From Deltaproteobacteria bacterium (lineage in GTDB: Bacteria > Myxococcota_A > Polyangia > Polyangiales > Houyiibacteriaceae), in assembly GCA_034670305.1 (NCBI GenBank), contig JAXMNT010000026.1, positions 40,529-104,528 of the forward strand: a stretch of DNA of 64,000 nucleotides, given 5' to 3'. Numbering within the stretch: position 1 is the first letter of the stretch; each line of letters begins with the position of its first letter. Positions 1,391 through 22,260 of this stretch are shown here, in pieces. The notes under the pieces were generated by a model. The model was not told the DNA's origin. It saw only the letters and a program-made list of their open reading frames with translations, and made no database searches. A program made the translations under genes and the position numbers.

Positions 1391-3745
1391 CTACTCCTCC
1401 GCGGCTGCGCGTTCCTCGCGCGCGCGCCGCTGGGCCTCGATCGCCCAGTACACCGCTTCGGGTGTCGAGGGACACGCGACGTCGACGCGTTCCGCGCCGC
1501 TTCCGAACGCCGCCACCGCGGCGCGGATCGCTTCGCGTGCGCTGAGCGCGAGCATCAACGGAGGTTCGCCGACGGCTTTGCTGCCGCCGATGACCGTCGG
1601 TTCGGTCGCCCGCGGCATGAGCTCCACGTGAAACGCCTCCGGGCATTCGCCGAGGGTCGGCAACTTGTACGTGCTCGCCCCGCGGGTGCCGAGCCGGCCG
1701 GTCTTCGCATCCCACACGAGCTCTTCGCGGGTGAGCCAACCGAGGCCTTGCATGAAGCCGCCTTCGACCTGGCCGCGGTCGACGAGCGGCGAGAGCGAGT
1801 CGCCGACGTCGTGCAGAATGTCGACGCGTCGAACGTCGTACTGGCCGGTGAATCCATCGACTTCGACCTCGGTCACCGCCGCGCCGTACGCGAAGTAGTG
1901 GAAGGGTTTGCCGACGCCTTTGGCTTCGTCGTAGTGGATGTTCGGGGTGCGGTAGTAGCCGGTCGCGAAGAGCCGCACCCGCTGCAGGTACGCGGTCTTG
2001 GCGATCTCGCCGAAGGACTTCTTCTCGGACGCGCGCCCGACCGGATGCACGAAGCCGGCGCTGAAGACGATGTCATGTGCGGCGCATCCGAAGAGCGCAC
2101 CCGCCACGCCCGCCAGTCGTTCACGGATCGCGTCGCACGCGTCCCGCACCGCCGCGCCGTTGAGATCGGTCCCGCTCGACGCCGCCGTGGCACTGGTGTT
2201 CGGCACCTTGTCGGTGCGGGTCGGCATCATGCGGATCGCCGGAAGGTCCACGCCGAGCGCGTCCGCCGCGATCTGCAGCATCTTCGTGTGCAGCCCCTGG
2301 CCCATCTCGGTGCCGCCGTGGTTAAGCTGCACCGAGCCATCCGCGTACAGCAGGACGAGCGCGCCCGCCTGGTTGAAGAACGCGGTGGTGAAAGAGATCC
2401 CGAACTTCACCGGCGTGATCGCGAGGCCGCGCTTCTTGTGCGGGTGGATCGCATTGAACGCTTCGATCGCTGCCAGCCGCGCCTCGAACTCGGACGACTG
2501 CGTGAGGCTCTGCCAGATGTCGCGCGCCCGCCCGGCGTCTTTGATCAACATGCCGTAGTGGGCGTGGTCCCCTTCTTCGATCAGGTTCGCCGCGCGCACG
2601 ACGTGCGGCGCCAAACCGGTGGCGCGCGCGATGCGGTCCATGATCTCTTCGATCACGACCATGCCCTGCGGGCCGCCGAATCCGCGGAACGCGGTCTGCG
2701 AGGTCTTGTGGGTTTTGCAGACCCGGCCGCGGACCCGCACGCTCGGCAGCTTGTAGGCGTTGTCGACGTGGAACATCGCGCGGAAGAGCACCGGCTTGCT
2801 CAGGTCGAGGCTCCAGCCGCCGTCGCTGAACAGCTCGATGTCCGCTGCGAGCAAACGGCCGTCCTCCGCGAACGCCACGTCGTAGCGGCCGAGGAAGGGA
2901 TGGCGTTTGCCGGTCATCACCATGTCGCGCTGACGGTCGAGCCGGAGCCGCACGGGCCGCCCGGTCTTCACCGCGCCGAGCGCGGCCACGCACGCCCAGA
3001 GGTTGGCCTGCACTTCTTTGCCGCCGAACGCGCCACCCATCCGGAGCGACTGGCAGGTGACCGCGTGTTTCGGGACCTCGAGCACGCGCGCCACGATCGC
3101 CTGGGTCTCGGTCGGGTGCTGGGTGCTCGCGTGCACCATCACCTGGCCGGACTCGTCCAGGTAGACGAGCGCCGCCTGCGACTCCAGGTAGAAGTGTTCC
3201 TGACCGCCGACGAACACCTCGCCGCTGAGCCGCTCGCCCGCCGAGAGCGCCGCCTGCAAGTTCTCGGCGCCGTCCGCGAGCCGCTCGATCGTCAGCGCTT
3301 CGGTGTGAAAGCTCTCGTGTGCGATCGCGGCTTCGATGCTCAAGATCGGATCGAGCGCTTCGACCTCGACGGCGACCTTCGCCGCGGCTTGGCGTGCTTC
3401 GGGTTCGGATTCGGCGAGCACCCACGCGACGGCCTGTCCATGGAACTGGACGACCGCCGGGAACATGTCTTCGTCCAGCGTCGCGGCGCCGATGTTGGCA
3501 TCCGGCGCGTCGTCGCGCGTGAGCACGGTGGCGACGCCGGGCATCGCGAGCGCGGCGGACGCGTCGACCGACACGACCCGCGCGTGGGCGACGTCGACGC
3601 ACACCGGCCAGGCGTGCAGCACGTTCGCCATGCGGGGTGCGATGTCGTCGGTGTAGAGCGCGGCGCCGGTGACGTGCTCGGCGGCGGACTCGTGCGGGAT
3701 CGCGAGACCCACCTGTCGTTTCTTCGTGATCGCGCCGGAAGTCAT
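1391..3745 (-). CDS. xdhB: Xanthine dehydrogenase molybdopterin-binding subunit
   Basis: Start MTSGAITK at 3745 overlaps xdhA stop (ATGA); motifs HESA..HVTG.A.YTDD, GGQEHFYLE, RMGGAFGGKE, AFRGFGGPQG, GGTEMGQGL, SKAVGEPP. Confidence 0.95.
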   Translation of the reverse strand: MTSGAITKKRQVGLAIPHESAAEHVTGAALYTDDIAPRMANVLHAWPVCVDVAHARVVSVDASAALAMPGVATVLTRDDAPDANIGAATLDEDMFPAVVQFHGQAVAWVLAESEPEARQAAAKVAVEVEALDPILSIEAAIAHESFHTEALTIERLADGAENLQAALSAGERLSGEVFVGGQEHFYLESQAALVYLDESGQVMVHASTQHPTETQAIVARVLEVPKHAVTCQSLRMGGAFGGKEVQANLWACVAALGAVKTGRPVRLRLDRQRDMVMTGKRHPFLGRYDVAFAEDGRLLAADIELFSDGGWSLDLSKPVLFRAMFHVDNAYKLPSVRVRGRVCKTHKTSQTAFRGFGGPQGMVVIEEIMDRIARATGLAPHVVRAANLIEEGDHAHYGMLIKDAGRARDIWQSLTQSSEFEARLAAIEAFNAIHPHKKRGLAITPVKFGISFTTAFFNQAGALVLLYADGSVQLNHGGTEMGQGLHTKMLQIAADALGVDLPAIRMMPTRTDKVPNTSATAASSGTDLNGAAVRDACDAIRERLAGVAGALFGCAAHDIVFSAGFVHPVGRASEKKSFGEIAKTAYLQRVRLFATGYYRTPNIHYDEAKGVGKPFHYFAYGAAVTEVEVDGFTGQYDVRRVDILHDVGDSLSPLVDRGQVEGGFMQGLGWLTREELVWDAKTGRLGTRGASTYKLPTLGECPEAFHVELMPRATEPTVIGGSKAVGEPPLMLALSAREAIRAAVAAFGSGAERVDVACPSTPEAVYWAIEAQRRAREERAAAEE

Positions 3746-5139
3746 TCTGCCGCCTCCGGATGCGCCTCGTGCGCGAGTTTGAGGATGAGCTGAGAGACCA
3801 TCGCGGCGCGGTAGCGCGCGCTGCCTCGGTGGTCGTCGATGGGCGTGAAGGCCGTCTCGAGCAAGGGCACCACGTCGGCCAGCGCGCTCGGATCGAGTGG
3901 TTTTCCAACCAGCGCGGCCTGCGCCGCGTGCGCGCACATCGGAGTCGCGGCGACCCCGCCGTAGGCGAGCCGCGCTTTGGTGATCAGACCGCCATCGGTC
4001 CAGAGCGCGAAGCCCGCGGCGACGGTCGAGATGTCGTCGAGGATGCGCTTGGACACCTTGAAGAAGCGCTGCACGTCCGGGAAGGGTTTGGGCACGATCA
4101 CCGAGCGCACGATCTCGCCCGGCTCGAGCTGGGTCTTGCGGTAGGCGGAGAAGAACCCGTCGAGCGGCACCGTCCGCTCGCCGCCTTTGCGCGCCAGCAC
4201 GAGTGACGCATCGAGCGCGAGGAGCGCCGGTGGTCCATCGCCGATCGGCGACGCGTTCACGAGGTTGCCGCCGAAGGTCGCGCGGTTGCGAATCAACCTG
4301 CTGCTGAAGAGCGGGAAGAGTTCGTCGAGCATCGGAAGGCGGCCGTGCAGCGCTTCTTCCAGGAACGCGAGCGGCTCCCCGGCACCGAGCACGAGCGCGT
4401 CGGCGGTCTCTTCGAAGCCGCGCAGCTCGCCGATCGCGTCCAGCGCGACCAGATGATCGAACCGCCGGTCCATCTGGTTGACCTCGACGACCACGTCGGT
4501 GCCGCCGCCCACGAGTTTCGCGTCGGGCGATGCCTCGAGCAGATCGAAGAGCTCCGCAAGGGTGGTCGGCCGATCGAAGCGCACCCCCGAATGTTCGGTG
4601 CGCAGGCTCGGGACCTCGAGCGCGGGCGACGCGAGCCGCTTCTGGTGCGGGTCCGCCTCCGACGGAGTTCGAAGCGAGACGAGCGCCTCCCGAATCGGGC
4701 GGTACCCAGTGCAGCGACAGAGGTTGCCGCCGATGGACTCGAGATCCGGTTCGCCCTCGACGCGGCCGTCCCGGTAGAACTCCGCGAACATGCTGACGAC
4801 GAAACCCGGCGTGCAGTAGCCGCACTGCGAACCGCCGCGCTCGACCATCGCCGCCTGCACCGGATGGAGGGCCGACGGGTCCTTCGCGATGCCTTCGACC
4901 GTCACGACCTCTTCGCCATGCACCGATGCGGTGAGCATCAGACACGCGTTCATCGGGACGTAGCGGGTCTTGCCGTCCGGTCCGGTGCGCACGAGCGCCA
5001 CCGCGCACGCGCCACACTCGCCTTCGGCGCAGCCTTCTTTGGTGCCGGTCCAGCCGCGGTCGCGGAGGAAGTGAAGAAGAGGAAGGTGGGGGTCGACGTC
5101 TGTCTCGATCGCCTCACCGTTGAGTCGGAACCGGATCAT
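3742..5139 (-). CDS. xdhA: Xanthine dehydrogenase small subunit (2x[2Fe-2S] + FAD domains)
   Basis: GTKEGCAEGECGAC, SQCGYCTPGF, GNLCRCTGY, IRNRATFGGNLVNASPIGD, KVSKR..DDIS; adjacent to xdhB. Confidence 0.95.
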   Translation of the reverse strand: MIRFRLNGEAIETDVDPHLPLLHFLRDRGWTGTKEGCAEGECGACAVALVRTGPDGKTRYVPMNACLMLTASVHGEEVVTVEGIAKDPSALHPVQAAMVERGGSQCGYCTPGFVVSMFAEFYRDGRVEGEPDLESIGGNLCRCTGYRPIREALVSLRTPSEADPHQKRLASPALEVPSLRTEHSGVRFDRPTTLAELFDLLEASPDAKLVGGGTDVVVEVNQMDRRFDHLVALDAIGELRGFEETADALVLGAGEPLAFLEEALHGRLPMLDELFPLFSSRLIRNRATFGGNLVNASPIGDGPPALLALDASLVLARKGGERTVPLDGFFSAYRKTQLEPGEIVRSVIVPKPFPDVQRFFKVSKRILDDISTVAAGFALWTDGGLITKARLAYGGVAATPMCAHAAQAALVGKPLDPSALADVVPLLETAFTPIDDHRGSARYRAAMVSQLILKLAHEAHPEAAE

Positions 5140-15526: not shown

Positions 15527-15865
15527 CGCCGAAGCCGAAGCACGTCGCCGAGGCCGAAGCCGAGGCCGAAGCCGAAGCCGAATCCGAGGCCGAAGCCGAG
15601 GCCGAAGCCGAAGCCGAAGCCGAAGCCGAAGCCGAATCCGAAGCCGAGGCCGACGCCGAATCCGAGGCCGAATCCGACGCCGGACAGCCGAAGCCGAGGC
15701 CGAAGCCGAGGCCGACGCCGAAGCCGACCCCGAATCCGAAGCCGAGGCCGAAGCCGAGGCCGACGCCGAAGCTGACCCCGAATCCGAGGCCGAAGCCGAA
15801 TCCGAGGCCGAAGCCGAAGCCGAATCCGAAGCCGACGCCGAAGCCGAATCCGAGGCCGACGCCGT
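15527..15865. repeat. Hexamer tandem repeat tract (gccgaa/gccgag/tccgag variants), about 340 bp, with an internal ~48-bp higher-order duplication
   Basis: Directly visible; produces artefactual PK, GF and AS dipeptide ORFs. Confidence 0.9.
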
Positions 15866-15978: not shown

Positions 15979-17769
15979 TCAGGCGGCTTCTTGGTCGTCG
16001 TCGGACGAGGTGTCCGGAGGCGTGGTGTCGTTGCCGGCGGTGAGTTTCGCGGTGGCGGCGGAGGCGAGCGCCGAAGCACCCGCGCCCACCTTGCTCAGCA
16101 CCCCGAGCGTGGTGTCGTCGGCCGCTTCGATGAAGCCGCCCACCGTGCGCGCCAGACTCTGGCCACGCACCACCGACTCGAGGATCTTCGTCACGTCTTC
16201 CGGCGTGCCGTAGAGCGTCGCTTCCATCTTCTGGAAGAGCTTGGCGCTGGCTTCCGCCATGGCGATCTGCACTTCCTTCTCGGCGGTGACCCGCAGCTTC
16301 GCGATCTCGAAGTCCTGCGCGACCTTGCCGTGCTCTTCCCGGGCCTCCAGCTCTGGCTTGACGACCGTCTCGACGCGCTCGCGGTCCACTTCGACCTGCG
16401 CACGCTCCACCTCGACGGGCACCATGGCCTTCGCCTTCTCGCCGTCGGCCTTCTGCCGCTCGGCTTCCGCTTCCGCTTCGGCCCGCATCCGGATCGCTTC
16501 CGCTTCCGCGTTGGCGGCCTGGCGCATGGCTTCGGCTTGCTTCTGCTTGGCGTAGGCGGCCGCATCGGCCTTGCGCATCTCCGAGACGTACGCGGTCTCC
16601 GCTTGGGCCTGGGCTTCGATGACCGACTTCACGCGGGCGCGCTCGGCCTCCTCTTTCACCCGGACGGTCTCCACCTTCTGGCGCGCGGTCTCCCGCTCCA
16701 CTTCCGCATCGGCGAGGGCGCTCTCGGCGGCCGCACGAAGCGTCTCGGCTTCGGCGATCTTCCGGTCCTTCTCCCGCTCCGCGATCTGCGTAGCGCTCTG
16801 TTGCTCCCGGGCCGCGACTTCCAAGGCTTGGATCTTCCCGATCTCCGCCAGGTCGAGCTGCCTCTGCACGGCGATGCCCTTTTCGCGGGCTTCGAGCGTG
16901 CTCTGTTGTTCGGTCTTCTCGATCGCGGCCCGTTGACGGGCGCCCGCCTCTTTCTCTTGCCGCTCGAGTTCGAGCAGCTCCTGGGTGGTCACGACGTCCT
17001 GCTCCGCGCGGGCCCGCTCGCCTTCACGGACGAGGCGGTTGCGCTCGGTCAGGTTCTGCTGCGTGATCTCCGCGATCTTGCGGCGGCCTTGTGCGTCGAA
17101 GATGTTCGAGTCCTTGAGGAACTTCTCGTCCGTCTGGTCGAGGCGCGAGATGGTCACCGTCTCGAGAATCAGACCGTTCGAGAGAAGATCGCCGGCGACG
17201 AACTTCATCACCTCCGCCAAGAAGTCGTCCCGCTCGCTGTTGAGCTGCTCGAGCGTCTTGCTCGCAGCGGCCGTGCGCAGCGCGCTGACCAACTTGTCCT
17301 CTACGAGACCCCGCACCGCTTGCGGGTCGCCCATGAGCTCCCCGAGGCTGCGCGACGCTTGGAGAATGCTCTCCCGCTCCGGCTGCACCCGCACGAAGAA
17401 CTCCGCGTGCACATCGGCGCGCAGCTTGTCCTTGGTGATGAGCGCGTCCTGGTTGTCGCGCGTGACCTGCAGTTTCAGGGTCTGCAGACTGACCCGCAGA
17501 AGTTCATGCATGAAGGGGACGACGATCGCGCCTCCGTCTTGAATGACCTTCACCCCGCCCGCGCCAGTCCGCACGAACGCTTCCGACGCCTTGGTGCGTT
17601 CGTAGAGTCGTGTGAAGAGCGTGAGCACGCCGCTGAGCACCACGCTCAGCCCTCCGACGATCATCATGATCGCGATGAGCCCGCCGCTGAGCGGGTGCCC
17701 GAGGGCCTCCGCTGCGAAGGGTCCGGCGAGCAGAAGCGCGCCGAAGAGGAAGAGGGTACCGATGGCCAT
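15979..17769 (-). CDS. Flotillin/SPFH (YqiK-like) family protein
   Basis: ATG 17769 with AAAGGAG RBS; N-terminal TM helices, AFVRTG.GG..V..DGG, LITKDKLRADV.AEFFVRV, long AE-rich coiled coil. Confidence 0.9.
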   Translation of the reverse strand: MAIGTLFLFGALLLAGPFAAEALGHPLSGGLIAIMMIVGGLSVVLSGVLTLFTRLYERTKASEAFVRTGAGGVKVIQDGGAIVVPFMHELLRVSLQTLKLQVTRDNQDALITKDKLRADVHAEFFVRVQPERESILQASRSLGELMGDPQAVRGLVEDKLVSALRTAAASKTLEQLNSERDDFLAEVMKFVAGDLLSNGLILETVTISRLDQTDEKFLKDSNIFDAQGRRKIAEITQQNLTERNRLVREGERARAEQDVVTTQELLELERQEKEAGARQRAAIEKTEQQSTLEAREKGIAVQRQLDLAEIGKIQALEVAAREQQSATQIAEREKDRKIAEAETLRAAAESALADAEVERETARQKVETVRVKEEAERARVKSVIEAQAQAETAYVSEMRKADAAAYAKQKQAEAMRQAANAEAEAIRMRAEAEAEAERQKADGEKAKAMVPVEVERAQVEVDRERVETVVKPELEAREEHGKVAQDFEIAKLRVTAEKEVQIAMAEASAKLFQKMEATLYGTPEDVTKILESVVRGQSLARTVGGFIEAADDTTLGVLSKVGAGASALASAATAKLTAGNDTTPPDTSSDDDQEAA

Positions 17770-17927
17770 GTTGGTCTCCTTTCTGGGGACATTCGAGAAC
17801 AGTCGGGCGATGCAGCCGGCCAAAGCCGCACCGCCCGGATGACCCGAGACGAACTCGGATCAACATCGGGGTCAGGTCAGGTCAGACAGAGGTCCCTGCG
17901 TCGCGAACGGCGCGGAACCAGAAGAGG

Positions 17928-18536
17928 TCATGCCTCGAGGCGGCTCACTGCGCGCGACTCGGGGCTCAGCGGGACGACCACATAGAGGCCGGAGTCGTCG
18001 TCGTAGTCGACGACCACCAAGCGCTCGCCCTTGTCGAGCGGTGCGTCTGCGCGGCATTGGATCTCGTGGAGCGTGCCGGCGTCGTCGTGGATCTGCGCCG
18101 CGCCGGAGTCTCCGCCGACCCGCATGCGCGCGACGCCGGCGCAGCCGACCAGTTGGTCCCGCGAGAGGGAGTAGCTCTCGCTGGTGGGCATCACGCGCCC
18201 AAGCAGCTGCCCGACGACGCCGGACAGGAGCGGCGCCACCGCGAGGGCGACGAACGCGGCCACGGTGACGCCGAGACTCGGCTTGAGGATCATGCCGAGG
18301 GCGCCGAACGAGAGCAGGCCCGCGCTGAGGATGGCGGACACCGGAGCCCGGCCGACCCCGAACCAGGAGAGCAGCGAGAGCCAGCCCCCGCCCCCGTTCC
18401 CCTCCCCGTCCGCATCGGCGTCGACGTCCACGTCGACGTCCACATCGACGTCGACGTCCACATCGCCGCCGCCCAGCACCGTGCCGATGCCCAGCACCAG
18501 GGCGAGAAGGATGGGAATGGCGAAGAGGAGGTTCAT
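17928..18536 (-). CDS. NfeD-like / YqiJ-like membrane protein with C-terminal OB-fold
   Basis: (DV)n acidic linker, LSWFGVGRAP motif, TM helices, LVG..G...A.I.D..G..H OB-like tail; upstream of flotillin. Confidence 0.8.
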   Translation of the reverse strand: MNLLFAIPILLALVLGIGTVLGGGDVDVDVDVDVDVDVDADADGEGNGGGGWLSLLSWFGVGRAPVSAILSAGLLSFGALGMILKPSLGVTVAAFVALAVAPLLSGVVGQLLGRVMPTSESYSLSRDQLVGCAGVARMRVGGDSGAAQIHDDAGTLHEIQCRADAPLDKGERLVVVDYDDDSGLYVVVPLSPESRAVSRLEA

Positions 18537-18623: not shown

Positions 18624-18652
18624 GCGGTTTTCATCACACATATGAAAATCGC
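18624..18652. promoter_or_regulatory. AT-rich inverted repeat, candidate transcription-factor site in a divergent intergenic region
   Basis: GCGGTTTTCAT-N7-ATGAAAATCGC (10 of 11 positions complementary). Confidence 0.55.
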
Positions 18653-18686
18653 CCGGAGATTGACGCCGGGCCGTGGTCGGTCGACG

Positions 18687-19202
18687 ATGCGCGCCGTGCC
18701 CGACACCCCAACCGAACCCGCACCCCACGGGGGCGCGCCTGCGACTGCGACCGACCACACGGAAGCCCCGCGCGGATCGGTCCTCAAACGCACGAACCGG
18801 CTGATCCTCGCGATCGTGGCGTTTCAGCTGCTCGTCCCGCTGACCTACTACATGCGCGACGACCCGTACGACGAGCGGTTCGCTTGGCGCATGTTCTCGG
18901 CCGTCCGCTTGCACAACTGCCAGACCGAAGCGGTGGATCGCCGAGACGAAGGTGAAGCGCCGATCGCGCTCACGAGCGTGATTCACCGCGCGTGGGTCAA
19001 CCACCTGGGGCGCAATCGGGCCGAGGTCGTGCACGCGTTTCTGCGGCACCGGTGCGAGGTCGACGGAGTCGATTCGGTGCAGGTGGTCAATCGGTGCGTG
19101 ACACCCGACGGCACCGCGCTGCGGCCACAGGTGTACGTGCGCGAATGCGCCTCCGGTGAAGTGCAAGAGCCCGACGCGCTCATCGTGGAGGCCACGCGAT
19201 GA
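18687..19202 (+). CDS. Single-TM protein resembling the C-terminal part of bacterial vitamin-K-dependent carboxylase-like proteins
   Basis: QLLVPLTYY...ERFAWRMF motif; ATGA overlap with the HTTM gene; start uncertain (18642/18687/18696). Confidence 0.65.
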   Translation: MRAVPDTPTEPAPHGGAPATATDHTEAPRGSVLKRTNRLILAIVAFQLLVPLTYYMRDDPYDERFAWRMFSAVRLHNCQTEAVDRRDEGEAPIALTSVIHRAWVNHLGRNRAEVVHAFLRHRCEVDGVDSVQVVNRCVTPDGTALRPQVYVRECASGEVQEPDALIVEATR

Positions 19203-21037
19203 GCAAGAAGCGGAAGAAGAAGAAAAAGAAGAAGCAGTCGTCCATTCCGGCTGCGTCTTCCACGAAGCGCAGCGAACCGGCCATCGGCGAAGCCTTTCGG
19301 CCCAAGCAGCCCGATCACGCACCGGCCGCGCCGCGGGTGAAACGACGCGCTCCCCGACAGGGTTGGGGCGGCTTCTGGTACGGCCCGGTCGATCCGGTCC
19401 GGCCGTGGCTGCTCTCGCGCCTGCTGCTGATGATGGTGGCGTTCGACTGTTGGCTCGATCTCGTACCGCACGGTGGCCGGTACGGGTTCAACGACTTCAA
19501 CGTCGCGCACTTCCGGATCCTCGACGCCCTGCAGCCGGTGCCGAGCAGCGGGTTCTACGTCGGGACCATTCTGCTGACCGGCTTCGCGGCGTTCGTGATG
19601 GCGCTGTCCAAACCCAACCGCCTGGGTCTCGCGGCGGTGTTCGGGCTCTACACCTACGCGTGGATGATGAGCATGCTGGACAGCTACCAGCACCACTACC
19701 TCATCTCGCTGTTGCTCTTCGCGCTCATCTTCTTTCCGCGAGTCGCGGCGGCCGATGTCTTTCCGCGCTCCAAGGGGCGCACGCCCCCGAGCGCGGTGAT
19801 CGGCGGCGCGCTCTTCGGGTACGGCGTCTACGAAACGGTGGTCGGGGTGTGCGGCGGCCCGACGCCGCTTGGGCTCTTCGGACCCGGCGCCGCGGTGGGC
19901 ACCCCGGCGTGGATCTGGATGGTGCGGGTTGCGATGGCACTCGGCGGCGGCCTGCTCGCGTTTCTTCCCGAGAAGAAACCCGACGTGCTCGACCCGAAGA
20001 AGCTGAAAGCGACCGCACCGAAACGGAAGTTCCCCGAGATCAGCGCGTGGGGCTACGTCCTGCTCGGCGTGACCTGCGCGATCGTCTACTTCTACACCGC
20101 GGTCGGCAAACTCAGCCCAGACTGGCGCGATGGACACGCGCTCCAGCGCCTCGGCCGCAGCGAACACCTCAGCGCACTCTTGAACACCGCGACCACCGAG
20201 GGCCTCCCCCTCTTCGGGGTGATGGAACCGGCGTCGTTCTGGAAGTGGATGGCGGCCGGCGCGATCTTGGTCCAGTTCGTCACCTGCGCCGGCTACATCG
20301 CGGGGTCCCGCTACGAGGTCCTGCCGCGCTGGGGCCGGTGGGCACTGGCCGTCGCACTCGGCGCACCGATCTCGTTTCACATCGGCGCCGAGCTCGGTCT
20401 GAGCCTCGACATCGGCTGGTTCAGTTTCTACATGATCCTCGTCCCGCTCGTGTTCTTCCTCCCCGCGGTGGTGCTGCGTCGGGTGAGCGAAGGCGCAGCG
20501 CTCGCCTCGGGGTGGGTCCAGTCGAAGTGGCCCGCCTCCCTTCCGACGAGCACGACCGCGATGGTGACCGCGGTGGCCGGCATCGGCGTGGCGCTCTTCG
20601 TCGGCATGCGGATCGACCTGCCGGGCGCCCACATGGCGCTGACGATCGGCGCGATGTGCGTCGCGGCCGCGGCCATCAACGGCGTGCGTCTGAGGCGCGC
20701 ACCCGAGGCGCTCTCGTGGGCGGCGGGCAGCGTGCTCGCGCTCATCTTCTGTTGGGGGTCGATCGCCCAGAGCGAAGCGCGTTTCGACTTCTACCGATTC
20801 GTCGGCGGCGAGTACCGCCGCCACGGCGAACCCGAGCGCGCGCTCGACGCCTACGTGAAAGCGAACCGGTACGTCGTCTCGCCGTGGTGTCTCTACCGCG
20901 GGCGCGATCTGGTCGAGTGTTACCGGGACGAGACGTACGCGGGTGAGGTCGCCGCAGGGCTCGAGGGCGTGCGGGTGGAGCGGCGCGATCGCCAGCGTCA
21001 GGAAGACGAGATGCGCGCGCTCGTCGGTGCCGAGTGA
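19199..21037 (+). CDS. HTTM-domain (vitamin-K-dependent gamma-carboxylase-like) membrane protein
   Basis: YQHHYL, VYFYTAVGKLSPDWRDG, FH...L.IGWFS..M motifs; many TM helices; poly-Lys N-terminus; TPR-like tail. Confidence 0.8.
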   Translation: MSKKRKKKKKKKQSSIPAASSTKRSEPAIGEAFRPKQPDHAPAAPRVKRRAPRQGWGGFWYGPVDPVRPWLLSRLLLMMVAFDCWLDLVPHGGRYGFNDFNVAHFRILDALQPVPSSGFYVGTILLTGFAAFVMALSKPNRLGLAAVFGLYTYAWMMSMLDSYQHHYLISLLLFALIFFPRVAAADVFPRSKGRTPPSAVIGGALFGYGVYETVVGVCGGPTPLGLFGPGAAVGTPAWIWMVRVAMALGGGLLAFLPEKKPDVLDPKKLKATAPKRKFPEISAWGYVLLGVTCAIVYFYTAVGKLSPDWRDGHALQRLGRSEHLSALLNTATTEGLPLFGVMEPASFWKWMAAGAILVQFVTCAGYIAGSRYEVLPRWGRWALAVALGAPISFHIGAELGLSLDIGWFSFYMILVPLVFFLPAVVLRRVSEGAALASGWVQSKWPASLPTSTTAMVTAVAGIGVALFVGMRIDLPGAHMALTIGAMCVAAAAINGVRLRRAPEALSWAAGSVLALIFCWGSIAQSEARFDFYRFVGGEYRRHGEPERALDAYVKANRYVVSPWCLYRGRDLVECYRDETYAGEVAAGLEGVRVERRDRQRQEDEMRALVGAE

Positions 21038-22260
21038 CGCCGGGGACGCCGAGTGGGGTCGCGCTCGTCGGGGATCAATGGATCCTGCCAGGCATCGCCA
21101 CCGCGCACTCGCACGCGTTCCAACGGGCGCTGCGAGGTCGTACGCAATCGGTGAACGCGTCGGCGACCCGCGACTTCTGGTCGTGGCGGGGATTGATGTA
21201 CCAGCTCGCTGGGCGGCTCGATCCGGACTCGATCTACGACTTGAGCCGGTTCGCGTTCGCGGAACTCGCCCGCCACGGCGTCACCGCGGTCGGTGAGTTC
21301 CACTACGTGCAGCACGACCCGAAGGGCCAGCCCTACGCCGACCGCATCGCGATGGCGGACGCGGTGGTTCGGGCGGCGCGGGACGTCGGGTTGCGGATCA
21401 CCTTGCTGCGCGTGCTCTATCAACGCGGCGGGTTCGGACGCGGCCTCGACGAGGTCCAGCGGCGGTTCTCGGATCCGGAGGTCGGGCACGCGCTCGCCGA
21501 CGCCGACGCGATCGCGGCCCGGTTCGAGTCGGACGAAGGTGTGCGGGTCGGGCTCGCCCCCCACAGCGTCCGAGCGGCGGGTTCGGAATGGCTCGAGGCC
21601 GCGCGCGATCACTGCGAAGCGCGTGGATGGCCGCTGCACATGCACGTGTCGGAGCAGCCGCGGGAGAACCAGGAGTGTCTTGCCGAGCATGGGCTGACGC
21701 CGGTCGGTCTGCTCGAGCGACTCGGTCTGCTCTCGGAACGGTTCGTCGCTGTCCACGCCACCCACCTGCGCCGGAGCGACGTCGCATCCCTGGCCTCGAG
21801 CGGTGCGACGGCGTGCATCTGCCGAACGACCGAGCGCGACCTCGGAGACGGAGCGCCGGATCTGTCGGCGCTGGTGCGCGCTGGGGTGAAGCTCAGCGTG
21901 GGCGTCGACAGCCACGCGCAGAGCGATCCCTTCGAGGAGCTTCGCGCGGTCGAGCTCGACGAACGCACCCGACTCGGACAGCGGCAGGTGGCCCTGGATG
22001 GCCCCGCGTTGCTGGAGGCGGGGTCGACGTCCGGGTACGCCTGCATCGGCCAGGCCCTCCAGGGCGACCGGATCTGGCTCGACGCCAACGACTTCTCGCT
22101 CGGGGGCGATGCCGGCGTGGATGGCATCGTGTTTGGAGCGAACGGGCGCGCCGTGCAGCGAAGCCGGGTGCTCGGCGCAGACGTCGTGATGGACGGCCGG
22201 GTGCCCCACCAAGACGCGATCACCGCCGCCTTTCGATCCGCGGTCGCGCGGCTCTCGTAG
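21034..22260 (+). CDS. hutF: Formimidoylglutamate deiminase (amidohydrolase)
   Basis: AHSHAFQRALRG, DFWSWR..MY, VGEFHY, APHSVRA, HMHVSEQPRE, TTERDLGDG, GVDSH. Confidence 0.85.
   Translation: MTPGTPSGVALVGDQWILPGIATAHSHAFQRALRGRTQSVNASATRDFWSWRGLMYQLAGRLDPDSIYDLSRFAFAELARHGVTAVGEFHYVQHDPKGQPYADRIAMADAVVRAARDVGLRITLLRVLYQRGGFGRGLDEVQRRFSDPEVGHALADADAIAARFESDEGVRVGLAPHSVRAAGSEWLEAARDHCEARGWPLHMHVSEQPRENQECLAEHGLTPVGLLERLGLLSERFVAVHATHLRRSDVASLASSGATACICRTTERDLGDGAPDLSALVRAGVKLSVGVDSHAQSDPFEELRAVELDERTRLGQRQVALDGPALLEAGSTSGYACIGQALQGDRIWLDANDFSLGGDAGVDGIVFGANGRAVQRSRVLGADVVMDGRVPHQDAITAAFRSAVARLS

What the first reader, a model, noticed from the sequence alone, without database searches (positions are those of the whole stretch)
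18687..21037. Split, reordered vitamin-K-dependent carboxylase-like (HTTM) enzyme
Seen: the 612-aa gene has YQHHYL and YFYTAVGKLSPDW..G, then ends in extra TM helices and a TPR-like tail. The small overlapping upstream gene has a TM helix with QLLVPLTYY...ERFAWRMF. Known (from memory of the family): gamma-glutamyl carboxylases use a His in an NHxYL-type motif and a Lys in YF..G..KL..DW, and single-chain homologs carry a later Q..LP....W.M motif leading into the soluble domain. Inference: the enzyme is encoded as two chains with the C-terminal module placed first, so it may be a heterodimeric quinone-dependent modifying enzyme with an unknown bacterial substrate.
Basis: partly seen in the sequence, partly recalled or inferred. 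Interest (0 to 1): 0.7.

Follow-up and report, generated by a model that had tools for sequence, protein, structure and literature searches.

The report
Two-gene split vitamin-K-carboxylase-like membrane enzyme
Two overlapping genes in a myxobacterial genome together encode what other organisms make as one protein, a membrane enzyme of the vitamin K-dependent carboxylase type, with a piece of the active site carried by the small partner; what it modifies is unknown.

Summary
The 612-aa gene (19199-21037) is a true HTTM/vitamin K-dependent carboxylase (VKGC) homologue. It keeps the counterparts of human GGCX H160, K218, W223 and F299. The 186-aa upstream gene (18642 or 18687 to 19202) overlaps it by ATGA.

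Three lines of evidence agree in register that the small protein matches the last membrane helix (TM9), the active-site loop LL9 and the first lumenal sub-domain of single-chain homologues:
- profile-profile comparison: 90% probability, E 1.6e-6;
- weak PF22777 hits in 32 of 88 relatives;
- fold match to GGCX residues 354-507: Z 6.3.

The pair is strictly co-conserved in Myxococcota. The HTTM gene is adjacent in 75 of 80 loci found through the small gene, and 63 of these show the 4-nt overlap. The small gene lies upstream in 19 of 19 loci found through the large gene.

A predicted complex scores 0.88 against 0.00 for controls. It puts the small protein's invariant ERFAWRMFS loop on the large chain's His motif.

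So the split, mostly reordered enzyme is supported. Quinone dependence, carboxylation and the substrate remain untested.

Split HTTM enzymes of other families are already described (DUF5819/SdpA-type, linaridin clusters), and this scan has met them on other DNA. This is therefore a new, unannotated variant, not a new kind.

The parts
18642..19202 (+). Small subunit gene (186 aa from ATG 18642; 171 aa if started at ATG 18687). Cytoplasmic N-tail, one TM helix, then a periplasmic domain of about 115 aa.
   Evidence: ORF. 445 representative homologues at E<=1e-3. AF2 model pLDDT 84.7. Public copies are named only 'hypothetical protein'.
18798..18854 (+). TM helix of the small subunit (residues 53-71, with QLLVP and invariant P66). 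Counterpart of TM9 of GGCX and of the last TM helix of single-chain bacterial homologues.
   Evidence: Hydropathy. hhalign register. GGCX QLFLP aligned to the canonical QvllP. VIA alignment of model 46-185 to GGCX 354-507.
18870..18899 (+). D77-S86, DERFAWRMFS: the most conserved motif of the small family. Counterpart of lumenal loop LL9 of GGCX (W82 = W399).
   Evidence: E78, R79, W82, R83 and S86 are invariant in 88 of 88. Register. In the predicted complex, residues 78-87 touch large-chain 159-167 and 306-318.
18900..19199 (+). Periplasmic alpha/beta domain of the small subunit (residues 87-186), with four conserved Cys (93, 138, 152, 169). Clamp-A-like.
   Evidence: Cys conserved in 86-88 of 88. 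Secondary structure. Fold matches to GGCX 376-506 (Z 5.1) and 354-507 (Z 6.3).
19199..19202 (+). ATGA: the start codon of the large gene overlaps the stop codon of the small gene (translational coupling).
   Evidence: Sequence. The same 4-nt overlap occurs in 63 of 80 related loci.
19199..21037 (+). Large subunit gene (612 aa): HTTM core, two inserted helices, three extra C-terminal TM helices and a TPR-like tail.
   Evidence: Pfam HTTM 51.1 bits. AF2 pLDDT 89.4, pTM 0.88. GGCX Z 15.2, rmsd 3.1, 261 aligned; all 16 chains with Z>=8 are GGCX.
19685..19702 (+). YQHHYL (163-168): H165 is the counterpart of GGCX H160; Q164 stands in place of N159.
   Evidence: Alignment. Q164, H165 and H166 are invariant in 54 of 54.
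19748..19987 (+). Insertion (about residues 184-263) with two hydrophobic helices. It is absent from single-chain bacterial homologues.
   Evidence: Gap in hhalign of the large family against the canonical family. Helices 197-217 and 237-255 in the model.
20087..20125 (+). YFYTAVGKLSPDW (297-309): K304 is the counterpart of the GGCX catalytic K218; W309 is the counterpart of W223.
   Evidence: Alignment. K304 in 54 of 54 and W309 in 53 of 54. In the predicted complex this helix packs on the small subunit's TM helix.
20411..20428 (+). IGWFSF (405-410): F408 is the counterpart of GGCX F299 (CO2 pocket).
   Evidence: Profile alignment to GGCX FSIGMFSY. F408 in 53 of 54. The role of F299 is taken from passages of PMC12647623.
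20546..20767 (+). Three extra TM helices (450-472, 477-497, 501-523) after the HTTM core.
   Evidence: Hydropathy and the AF2 model.
20777..21034 (+). TPR-like tail (527-612) with a conserved Cys pair (C564, C574). Inferred to be periplasmic.
   Evidence: VIA matches to TPR proteins at Z 5.3-7.5. The tail is present in 42 of 54 family members; the two Cys are conserved in 39 and 40 of those 42. Residues 538 and 541-543 lie at the predicted interface.
21034..22260 (+). Downstream gene for a formimidoylglutamate deiminase (HutF)-like amidohydrolase. Its GTG start overlaps the large gene's stop by 4 nt. It is a frequent neighbour, not shown to be functionally linked.
   Evidence: NF006681 451.4 bits against a cut-off of 362. 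A homologue lies downstream in 32 of 80 loci (30 by clustering).

Best explanation
The two genes encode the two subunits of one inner-membrane enzyme of the HTTM / vitamin K-dependent carboxylase (VKGC) superfamily.

The large chain supplies the quinone-binding transmembrane core. It carries the catalytic Lys (K304) and the His motif (H165), plus W309 and F408.

The small chain is made in fixed ratio through the ATGA overlap. It supplies three things that single-chain homologues carry after the core: the last membrane helix (TM9), the conserved loop that covers the quinone and substrate pocket (LL9; here ERFAWRMFS) and a small disulfide-bonded periplasmic domain (clamp-A-like).

The active site is therefore composite and faces the periplasm.

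By analogy with GGCX, the complex would use the cell's own menaquinol (vitamin K2) and O2 to generate a strong base. That base would deprotonate, and possibly carboxylate, an exported substrate. The substrate is not encoded next to the pair.

What is shown: homology of both chains, the register of the split, co-conservation, and a predicted interface.

What is inferred: the topology, quinone use, the chemistry and the existence of a substrate.
For: Large chain:
- Pfam HTTM.
- GGCX is the only PDB family hit by sequence.
- GGCX is the clear top by fold: Foldseek has 7 of 7 matches at E<=0.001; VIA gives Z 15.2 against 7.6 for the next family.
- H165, K304, W309 and F408 align to H160, K218, W223 and F299 and are kept in 53-54 of 54 relatives.

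Small chain:
- 32 of 88 relatives give weak PF22777 hits.
- hhalign to single-chain HTTM+lumenal proteins: Prob 88.5-90%, E 1.6e-6 to 2.7e-6. It covers TM9, LL9 and the first part of the lumenal domain.
- Those single-chain proteins align to GGCX 48-505 at E 4e-64.
- The fold match to GGCX 354-507 (Z 6.3, 127 aligned, rank 1 of 999) lies in the same register.
- Large and small profiles tile the canonical protein (56-323 and 298-400) and do not resemble each other (Prob 0.3).

Coupling:
- 4-nt overlap in 63 of 80 loci, and a junction within -20..+2 nt in 75 of 80.
- The small gene lies directly upstream in 19 of 19 genomes found through the large gene.
- One locus has the opposite order with the same overlap.

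Complex:
- ipSAE 0.87, 0.88 and 0.95 (median 0.88); best of 3 controls 0.00. This mark was reached by 116 of 157 solved complexes and 2 of 215 mismatched pairs.
- The runs agree in >=91% of contacts; partner pLDDT >=73.
- The interface joins small 78-87 to large 159-167 and 306-318, and the small TM helix to the K304 helix.

Cofactor context: the genome has menA (192.2 bits, cut-off 102.15) and a VKOR-domain gene (54.1 bits, cut-off 27.5).

Roles of H160, K218, W223, F299, Y395 and LL9 in GGCX come from passages of PMC12647623.
Against: - The window's own small protein has no hit to PF22777 or to GGCX by HMMER. The family profile also misses GGCX in the PDB.
- The fold Z-scores for the small chain are modest. 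In the unbiased search of 48,161 chains, GGCX ranks 5th (Z 5.1), tied with unrelated folds (urate oxidase, Z 5.8). Foldseek alone found nothing at E<=0.001.
- The complex pass may reflect the model's memory of single-chain GGCX structures, and own alignments were used, so the calibration holds only roughly.
- The Glu-binding triad of GGCX is not kept. N159 is Q164, and Y395 falls in a 3-residue gap of the small family.
- No clamp-B jelly-roll is present.
- No substrate gene is conserved nearby.
- No biochemical evidence was available.
Confidence: 0.72

Rival explanations
1. The pair is a genuine carboxylase in the strict GGCX/MloH sense. It would add CO2 to Glu or Asp residues (+44 Da) of exported myxobacterial proteins or peptides.
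For: The KH2-deprotonating Lys and the CO2-pocket residues are kept (K304, H165, F408). A bacterial family member, MloH, is reported to carboxylate an aspartyl residue (passages of PMC12647623 and of bioRxiv 10.64898/2026.08.19.745780). The LL9-like loop has two invariant Arg (R79, R83) that could hold an acidic group.
Against: The Tyr395 counterpart is absent and N159 is replaced by Gln. There is no propeptide-binding clamp B. No precursor gene is conserved beside the pair. HTTM proteins of linaridin clusters are suspected of a different chemistry, Thr dehydration (passages of PMC9927463).
Confidence: 0.2
2. The complex forms, but the small protein is an accessory subunit (stabiliser, substrate recruiter or regulator) and not part of the catalytic pocket.
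For: In some relatives the small subunit is fused at its cytoplasmic end to a Ser/Thr kinase domain (L036, L088, P0157) or to 2Fe-2S/4Fe-4S domains (L084, P0224, P0254). This would suit a signalling or electron-supply role. 12 of 54 large-chain relatives lack the tail, so the periplasmic parts are variable.
Against: The best-conserved part of the small family is the loop that aligns with LL9, not a surface of the globular domain. The predicted interface puts that loop on the His motif and on the segment after K304. The large chain has no LL9 equivalent of its own.
Confidence: 0.12
3. The two genes are merely neighbours, or a single gene broken by a frameshift or assembly error, and do not form a two-chain enzyme.
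For: The window comes from a draft assembly of 105 contigs. Two related loci (L018, L054) show broken large-gene frames.
Against: The same two-ORF layout with a 4-nt overlap recurs in 63 of 80 loci from different species genomes. A read-through fusion in this order is topologically implausible, because the small chain would end in the periplasm while the large chain starts with a Lys-rich cytoplasmic tail (inference). The complex prediction also passes its controls.
Confidence: 0.03

Closest known systems
[quoted passage not shown] PDB 9l24, 9bvq, 9bum)
   Same: The fold of the transmembrane core is shared (Z 15.2). H160, K218, W223 and F299 have counterparts. The TM9-LL9-clamp A segment is matched by the small chain (Z 6.3, GGCX 354-507), with W399 = W82.
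   Different: There are two polypeptides instead of one, with the TM9/LL9/clamp-A gene placed upstream. There is no clamp B and no Tyr395 counterpart, and N159 is Gln. Two extra helices are inserted between the His and Lys helices. Three extra C-terminal TM helices and a TPR-like tail are added. The organism is bacterial, so menaquinone is the likely quinone.
Single-chain bacterial HTTM + VKGC_lumenal_dom proteins (PF05090 + PF22777). Examples are the 458-aa paralogue in this same genome (L001) and, from the literature, MloH of malonomycin biosynthesis.
   Same: The domain content is the same. The large and small families tile the single-chain profile at 56-323 and 298-400. Both forms occur in the same genome and phylum.
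   Different: The canonical form is one chain of about 450-500 aa and scores far above Pfam cut-offs (245.7 and 124.9 bits). In this genome it sits between imelysin and TonB-receptor genes. The split family is much more diverged: HTTM scores 51 bits, and the small chain falls below the PF22777 cut-off.
Known or predicted split HTTM systems. (a) DUF5819 protein + HTTM(-DCC1) protein (bioRxiv 10.64898/2026.08.19.745780, passages read). (b) SdpA/SdpB of Bacillus (recalled, not read). (c) HTTM proteins of linaridin clusters such as crdG with crdL/crdE (PMC9927463, passages).
   Same: A single-pass membrane protein with an extracytoplasmic domain is encoded next to an HTTM membrane protein. For DUF5819 the preprint predicts a complex resembling whole GGCX, with the partner's helix on a GGCX TM helix and its domain in the place of the lumenal domain.
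   Different: The small protein here is not DUF5819: 0 of 88 relatives hit it at E<=0.1, and there is no hit at the locus. Neither chain hits any NCBIfam model, which includes the SdpA/SdpB models as I recall them. The small chain keeps sequence-level similarity to the VKGC lumenal domain and LL9. The large chain has no DCC domain but has extra TM helices and a TPR-like tail. No peptide-precursor or RiPP genes accompany the pair. Distribution is essentially Myxococcota.

Membership tests
HTTM / VKGC superfamily (PF05090), large chain | Profile match above the curated cut-off | tested here: met
   51.1 bits against a cut-off of 27.7, E 1.8e-13. Also found in the genome-wide scan.
HTTM / VKGC superfamily (PF05090), large chain | Catalytic Lys (GGCX K218) and His (H160) in their motifs | tested here: met
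   K304 and H165 align to K218 and H160. Both are invariant in 54 of 54 relatives.
HTTM / VKGC superfamily (PF05090), large chain | GGCX-like fold of the transmembrane domain | tested here: met
   VIA gives Z 15.2, rmsd 3.1, 261 aligned. All 16 chains with Z>=8 are GGCX, and the next family scores Z 7.6. In Foldseek, 7 of 7 matches at E<=0.001 are GGCX.
VKGC lumenal domain (PF22777), small chain | Profile match above the curated cut-off (27.7 bits) | tested here: not met
   The window protein has no hit at E<=1 or in the genome scan at E<=10. 32 of 88 relatives hit, all below the cut-off, best E 0.0013.
VKGC lumenal domain (PF22777), small chain | Homology to the TM9-LL9-lumenal segment of single-chain members by profile-profile comparison | tested here: met
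   hhalign A1 vs A3: Prob 90.1%, E 1.6e-6, 93 columns, small 45-139 to canonical 302-400. An independent local run gave Prob 88.5%, E 2.7e-6.
VKGC lumenal domain (PF22777), small chain | Fold like GGCX clamp A preceded by TM9 | tested here: inconclusive
   GGCX 9l24_A: Z 6.3, rmsd 3.1, 127 aligned, rank 1 of 999. In the unbiased search GGCX 9bum_A scores Z 5.1 at rank 5 of 48,161, tied with unrelated folds. Foldseek found nothing at E<=0.001.
Glu gamma-carboxylase in the GGCX sense (function) | Glu-carboxylate binding triad N159/H160/Y395 | tested here: not met
   Q164 stands in place of N159. Y395 aligns to Met in the canonical bacterial proteins and to a 3-residue gap in the small family. 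The role of the triad comes from passages of PMC12647623.
Glu gamma-carboxylase in the GGCX sense (function) | Propeptide-binding cleft formed by clamp A and clamp B (jelly-roll) | tested here: not met
   The small chain aligns only to GGCX 354-507. No beta jelly-roll appears in either model. The large chain's periplasmic tail is TPR-like.
Glu gamma-carboxylase in the GGCX sense (function) | Quinol- and O2-dependent epoxidation coupled to carboxylation | not testable with these tools
   Only context is available: menA and a VKOR-domain gene are in the genome.
DUF5819/SdpA + HTTM/SdpB split systems | Small partner belongs to DUF5819 (PF19136) or the SdpA family | tested here: not met
   0 of 88 relatives hit DUF5819 at E<=0.1. 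The best DUF5819 match in the genome is elsewhere, at E 0.369. No NCBIfam hit at E<=1.
DUF5819/SdpA + HTTM/SdpB split systems | Architecture: a single-pass protein with an extracytoplasmic domain encoded beside an HTTM protein and predicted to complete a GGCX-like assembly | tested here: met
   Compared with the description read.

The most novel reading that the evidence does not exclude
Myxococcota carry a lineage-wide, obligately two-subunit menaquinone-dependent 'vitamin K carboxylase' that modifies envelope or secreted targets. Its active-site loop is delivered in trans by a small subunit. Because that subunit can be fused to cytoplasmic Ser/Thr kinase or Fe-S domains, it would link periplasmic quinone chemistry to cytoplasmic signalling or electron supply. 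This would be a bacterial vitamin K cycle with a physiological role unrelated to peptide antibiotics.
Probability: 0.15. Interest if true: 0.75.

Novelty: new variant of a known kind. Interest (0 to 1): 0.45.

Why it matters
GGCX structures appeared only in 2025, and what bacterial HTTM proteins do is largely unknown.

A natural, strictly conserved split exactly before TM9/LL9 shows that the pocket-covering loop can be supplied in trans. It also marks the module boundary of the enzyme.

The pair offers a compact two-gene system for expression. It occurs in at least 240 species genomes, and every public copy of the small gene that I looked up is labelled 'hypothetical protein'.

It gives a concrete annotation for an unnamed protein family with 445 cluster representatives.

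It also points to a menaquinone-dependent modification in the myxobacterial envelope that could be sought by proteomics or lipidomics.

The idea of split HTTM enzymes is not new, which limits the surprise.

Tried and rejected
- **Small protein, direct HMMER searches.** Pfam, NCBIfam and PDB gave nothing relevant. The family profile against PDB found only a chance hit (ClgR, E 0.33).
- **Small model, Foldseek.** Nothing at E<=0.001 against PDB.
- **Paralogues of the small gene.** phmmer and hmmsearch of the small protein and family against 50,637 six-frame ORFs of the genome found only the gene itself. So no paralogue exists, and the other three HTTM genes hide no copy.
- **Small vs large family.** hhalign gave Prob 0.3%, so the pair is not a duplication.
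- **Conserved substrate or RiPP gene near the pair.** I clustered ORFs of >=120 aa from the 80 loci. Apart from the pair and its antisense frames, only the HutF-like gene (30-32 loci) recurs widely. Other recurrent neighbours (pseudouridine synthase, AhpC/TSA redoxin, FTHFS, metallophosphoesterase, sigma-54 activator) occur in 5 to 12 loci each.
- **Stand-alone close relatives of the canonical lumenal domain.** The 'shorter' search gave 90 short proteins, but most sit on contigs of about 1-3 kb and several are labelled 'partial'. They are mostly truncated genes and no evidence for further splits.
- **ESM Atlas.** The nearest clusters are unnamed Myxococcota proteins (0.93-0.94). A 167-aa PF22777 cluster scores only 0.80, which is a lead, not evidence.
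- **Promoter and terminator scan.** Nothing above shuffles.
- **Literature.** Searches for 'HTTM' + 'bacterial' + 'gamma-carboxylase' (0 papers), 'HTTM domain' (3 papers), DUF5819/SdpA/SdpB/HTTM and MloH/malonomycin found no description of this myxobacterial pair in the held library. Subscription papers were not searched.
- **Model coordinates.** They are not available to scripts. I therefore could not superpose the complex on GGCX or measure Cys-Cys distances.
Full report
**What is there**

The window is about 69% G+C. It lies on contig C26 of a 7.9-Mb draft genome. Its relatives are Myxococcota: Polyangiales, Sandaracinaceae and Bradymonadia (names).

On the + strand there are two ORFs:
- a 612-aa ORF at 19199-21037.

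The second start codon overlaps the first stop as ATGA.

**The large protein**

- It hits Pfam HTTM at 51.1 bits against a cut-off of 27.7.
- Among PDB sequences it hits only human GGCX: 8 of 8 distinct sequences, best E 2.6e-6.
- Using the +31 offset between the construct and full-length numbering in that table, the alignment puts Q164 and H165 on N159 and H160, K304 on K218, and W309 on W223.
- The family profile adds F408 on F299.
- In an alignment of 54 relatives, Q164, H165, H166 and K304 are invariant; W309 and F408 are kept in 53 of 54.
- The AF2 model is confident (pLDDT 89.4, pTM 0.88).
- GGCX is its only strong structural match. In Foldseek, 7 of 7 matches at E<=0.001 are GGCX. VIA gives Z 15.2, rmsd 3.1, 261 aligned. 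All 16 chains with Z>=8 are GGCX, and the next family scores Z 7.6.

Compared with single-chain bacterial homologues, the large chain has three additions:
- an insertion of about 80 residues with two hydrophobic helices (184-263);
- three further TM helices (450-523);
- a tail (527-612) that matches TPR proteins at Z 5.3-7.5. The tail carries a Cys pair kept in 39 and 40 of the 42 relatives that have the tail.

**The small protein**

It has a basic N-tail, one TM helix (53-71) and a domain of about 115 residues with four Cys kept in 86-88 of 88 relatives.

On its own it hits nothing in Pfam, NCBIfam or the PDB. It is nevertheless a real family:
- 445 cluster representatives at E<=1e-3, 275 at E<=1e-10;
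- mostly 100-310 aa among the 150 listed;
- named only 'hypothetical protein' where a name exists.

The most conserved stretch is D-E-R-F-A-W-R-M-F-S (77-86), with E78, R79, W82, R83 and S86 invariant.

**Is the small protein the missing part of the carboxylase?**

Three lines of evidence agree in register.

1. *Weak Pfam hits.* 32 of 88 relatives give sub-threshold hits to PF22777 (VKGC lumenal domain; best E 0.0013). No other Pfam family is hit by more than one member.

2. *Profile-profile comparison.*
   - The same genome holds a canonical single-chain HTTM+lumenal protein of 458 aa (HTTM 245.7 bits, PF22777 124.9 bits).
   - A profile of its family aligns to GGCX 48-505 at E 4e-64.
   - Comparison of the small family with that family gives Prob 90.1%, E 1.6e-6 over 93 columns, small 45-139 to canonical 302-400. 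An independent local run with 116 canonical sequences gave Prob 88.5%, E 2.7e-6.
   - Chaining the two alignments gives these equivalences:

     | Small chain | Canonical bacterial | Human GGCX |
     |---|---|---|
     | Q62-P66 (QLLVP) | QvllP | Q374-P378, in TM9 |
     | W82 | W344 | W399, in loop LL9 |

   - The large family aligns to canonical 56-323 (Prob 97.1%, E 6e-11).
   - The large and small families show no similarity to each other (Prob 0.3%).
   - So the two chains tile the single-chain protein.

3. *Fold.*
   - The AF2 model of the small protein has pLDDT 84.7.
   - Among Foldseek's 1000 best chains its best VIA match is GGCX 9l24_A: Z 6.3, rmsd 3.1, 127 residues, model 46-185 to chain 354-507. 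The next row has Z 5.0 with 86 aligned.
   - In the unbiased scan of 48,161 chains, GGCX 9bum_A ranks fifth (Z 5.1, 105 aligned, 66-184 to 376-506). That is within one Z unit of unrelated top rows (urate oxidase, Z 5.8, 81 aligned).
   - Foldseek alone found nothing.
   - Taken alone the fold evidence is inconclusive. Its value is that it lands on the segment the sequence chain predicts.

According to passages of PMC12647623, GGCX has nine TM helices. LL9 is a highly conserved loop that covers the vitamin K pocket and forms part of the Glu pocket (Y395). Clamp A is a small beta-sheet sub-domain. The small protein therefore corresponds to TM9, LL9 and a clamp-A-like domain. Clamp B (jelly-roll) has no counterpart in either chain.

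**Co-conservation**

*Starting from the small gene.*
- A scan of one genome per species found 251 pattern matches, 240 confirmed by tblastn. The best 80 loci were kept.
- 78 of the 80 carry a large-type HTTM frame on the same strand.
- In 75 of 80 a start codon of the HTTM gene lies within -20 to +2 nt of the small gene's stop. In 63 of 80 it is exactly the 4-nt overlap.

The five exceptions are:

| Locus | What differs |
|---|---|
| L041, L052 | The locus ends <=100 nt after the small gene, so they cannot be assessed |
| L054 | Only broken HTTM fragments |
| L033 | The HTTM gene lies 3.2 kb downstream |
| L072 (Microvenator) | Opposite order, HTTM then small, again with a 4-nt overlap |

L018 is counted among the 63, although its HTTM gene is split over three frames.

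*Starting from the large gene.* 19 of 201 sampled genomes of the class have a match at E<=1e-20. In 19 of 19 the small gene lies directly upstream on the same strand.

The genome has one copy of the pair.

**Predicted complex**

- Both alignments were supplied. The three runs scored ipSAE 0.87, 0.88 and 0.95 (median 0.88), against 0.00 for the best of three controls.
- This mark was reached by 116 of 157 solved complexes and 2 of 215 mismatched pairs.
- The runs agree in at least 91% of contacts, and the partner's pLDDT is at least 73.
- The small TM helix (51-66) packs on the K304 helix (284-303) and on residues 56-62.
- The ERFAWRMFS loop (78-87) touches 159-167 (the His motif), 94-104 and 306-318 (the segment after K304).
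- Part of the tail (538, 541-543) also lies at the interface.
- This is the arrangement expected of TM9 and LL9.
- Caveat: halves of a protein whose single-chain form has been solved can pass from memory. The calibration also holds only roughly with own alignments. The result therefore shows likeness, not binding.

**How it most likely works**

*Shown:* both chains are homologous to complementary parts of VKGC-type enzymes, are co-inherited and translationally coupled, and are predicted to assemble into a GGCX-like unit with a composite pocket.

*Inferred:*
- Topology. The Lys-rich N-terminus of the large chain and the basic N-tail of the small chain would be cytoplasmic. The small domain and the tail would be periplasmic, which fits their conserved Cys.
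- Cofactor. Menaquinol is the likely quinone: the genome has menA at 192.2 bits and a VKOR-domain gene. That myxobacteria respire with menaquinone is my own knowledge.
- Chemistry. Lys-initiated oxygenation of the quinol would produce a strong base acting on an exported substrate.

Whether CO2 is added is open. The CO2-pocket residues are kept, but the Glu-binding Tyr395 is missing and N159 is Gln. HTTM proteins in linaridin clusters are suspected of other chemistry (passages of PMC9927463).

No substrate gene is conserved nearby. Only a HutF-like amidohydrolase recurs, in 32 of 80 loci, and other neighbours vary.

In a few relatives the small subunit is fused at its cytoplasmic end to other domains:
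- a Ser/Thr kinase domain (L036, L088, P0157);
- 2Fe-2S plus 4Fe-4S domains (L084, P0224, P0254).

In the three loci the HTTM gene still follows. These fusions hint at signalling or electron supply. They were found in 3 of 18 long frames scanned.

**Comparison with what is known, and novelty**

Split HTTM systems are already on record.
- A 2026 preprint (bioRxiv 10.64898/2026.08.19.745780, passages read) predicts that DUF5819 single-pass proteins complete adjacent HTTM-DCC1 proteins into a GGCX-like assembly. It notes that MloH is the fused form.
- Bacillus SdpA/SdpB (recalled) and the linaridin HTTM genes are of the same kind.
- Earlier notes of this scan describe such pairs on other genomes.

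The pair here is not a member of those families. 0 of 88 relatives hit DUF5819, the locus gives no DUF5819 hit and there are no NCBIfam hits. It differs in four ways:
- the small chain keeps detectable similarity to the VKGC lumenal domain and LL9;
- the gene order is mostly reversed;
- the large chain has inserted helices, extra C-terminal helices and a TPR-like tail;
- the pair lacks a peptide-antibiotic context.

My four literature searches found no description of this myxobacterial family in the held library.

I therefore rate it a new variant of a known kind, of moderate interest.

Noticed in passing
window 21034-22260 (+): A formimidoylglutamate deiminase (HutF)-like gene (NF006681, 451.4 bits against a cut-off of 362) starts with a GTG that overlaps the HTTM gene's stop by 4 nt. 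A homologue lies downstream of the pair in 32 of 80 related loci. The match begins at profile position 49 of 451, so the protein may lack the usual N-terminal segment. A functional link to the pair is unexplained.
   Followed up: partly
L036 178-2013, L088 2-1501, L084 3209-4369 (also P0157, P0224, P0254): In some relatives the small subunit is fused at its cytoplasmic N-terminus to a Ser/Thr protein kinase domain, or to 2Fe-2S plus 4Fe-4S ferredoxin-like domains. In the three loci the HTTM gene still follows directly.
   Followed up: partly
L072 2081-3738 (Microvenator sp. MAG): The same split pair in the opposite order: a 428-aa HTTM gene and then a 124-aa small gene, again overlapping by 4 nt. 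It may show the original order after fission.
   Followed up: partly
L001 (G000 contig C31), ORFs 284-1465, 1465-2841, 2838-3773: The same genome has a canonical single-chain HTTM+VKGC_lumenal_dom protein (458 aa). It lies between an imelysin (Peptidase_M75) gene and a TonB-dependent receptor plug gene, with overlapping or abutting ends.
   Followed up: partly
L002 and L004 (G000 contig C22, about 5 kb apart): Two further, weaker HTTM-domain frames (756-aa and 534-aa open frames; 38.7 and 31 bits) lie near each other on opposite strands. Neither has a small-subunit relative nearby that the family profile can detect.
   Followed up: no
window 15528-15864: A hexanucleotide array (GCCGAA, 55.7 copies, 79% matches). 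It reads as Ala/Ser/Asp-, Gly/Phe- or Pro/Lys-rich low-complexity frames on the two strands. Whether it is coding is unclear.
   Followed up: no
window 15979-18536 (-): An SPFH/flotillin-like gene (Band_7, 614 aa) and a YqiJ_N/NfeD-like membrane gene (202 aa) lie divergently upstream of the pair. The latter contains an 18-nt repeat (18415-18465) that encodes a VDVD run.
   Followed up: no
L070 3192-3953 (-) and 10 other loci: An AhpC/TSA-redoxin (thioredoxin-fold) gene lies divergently just upstream of the small gene in 11 of 80 loci. It could relate to the conserved periplasmic cysteines.
   Followed up: no
window 19199-19240: The large protein begins MSKKRKKKKKKKQ, an unusually long Lys run for a 69% G+C genome. 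The N-terminus is not conserved in relatives.
   Followed up: no
ESM Atlas result for small protein residues 45-186: A cluster of 691 proteins of about 167 aa, all carrying PF22777 and mostly from Bacteroidota, is the second-nearest named cluster (score 0.80, a lead only). It may be another stand-alone lumenal-domain family.
   Followed up: no
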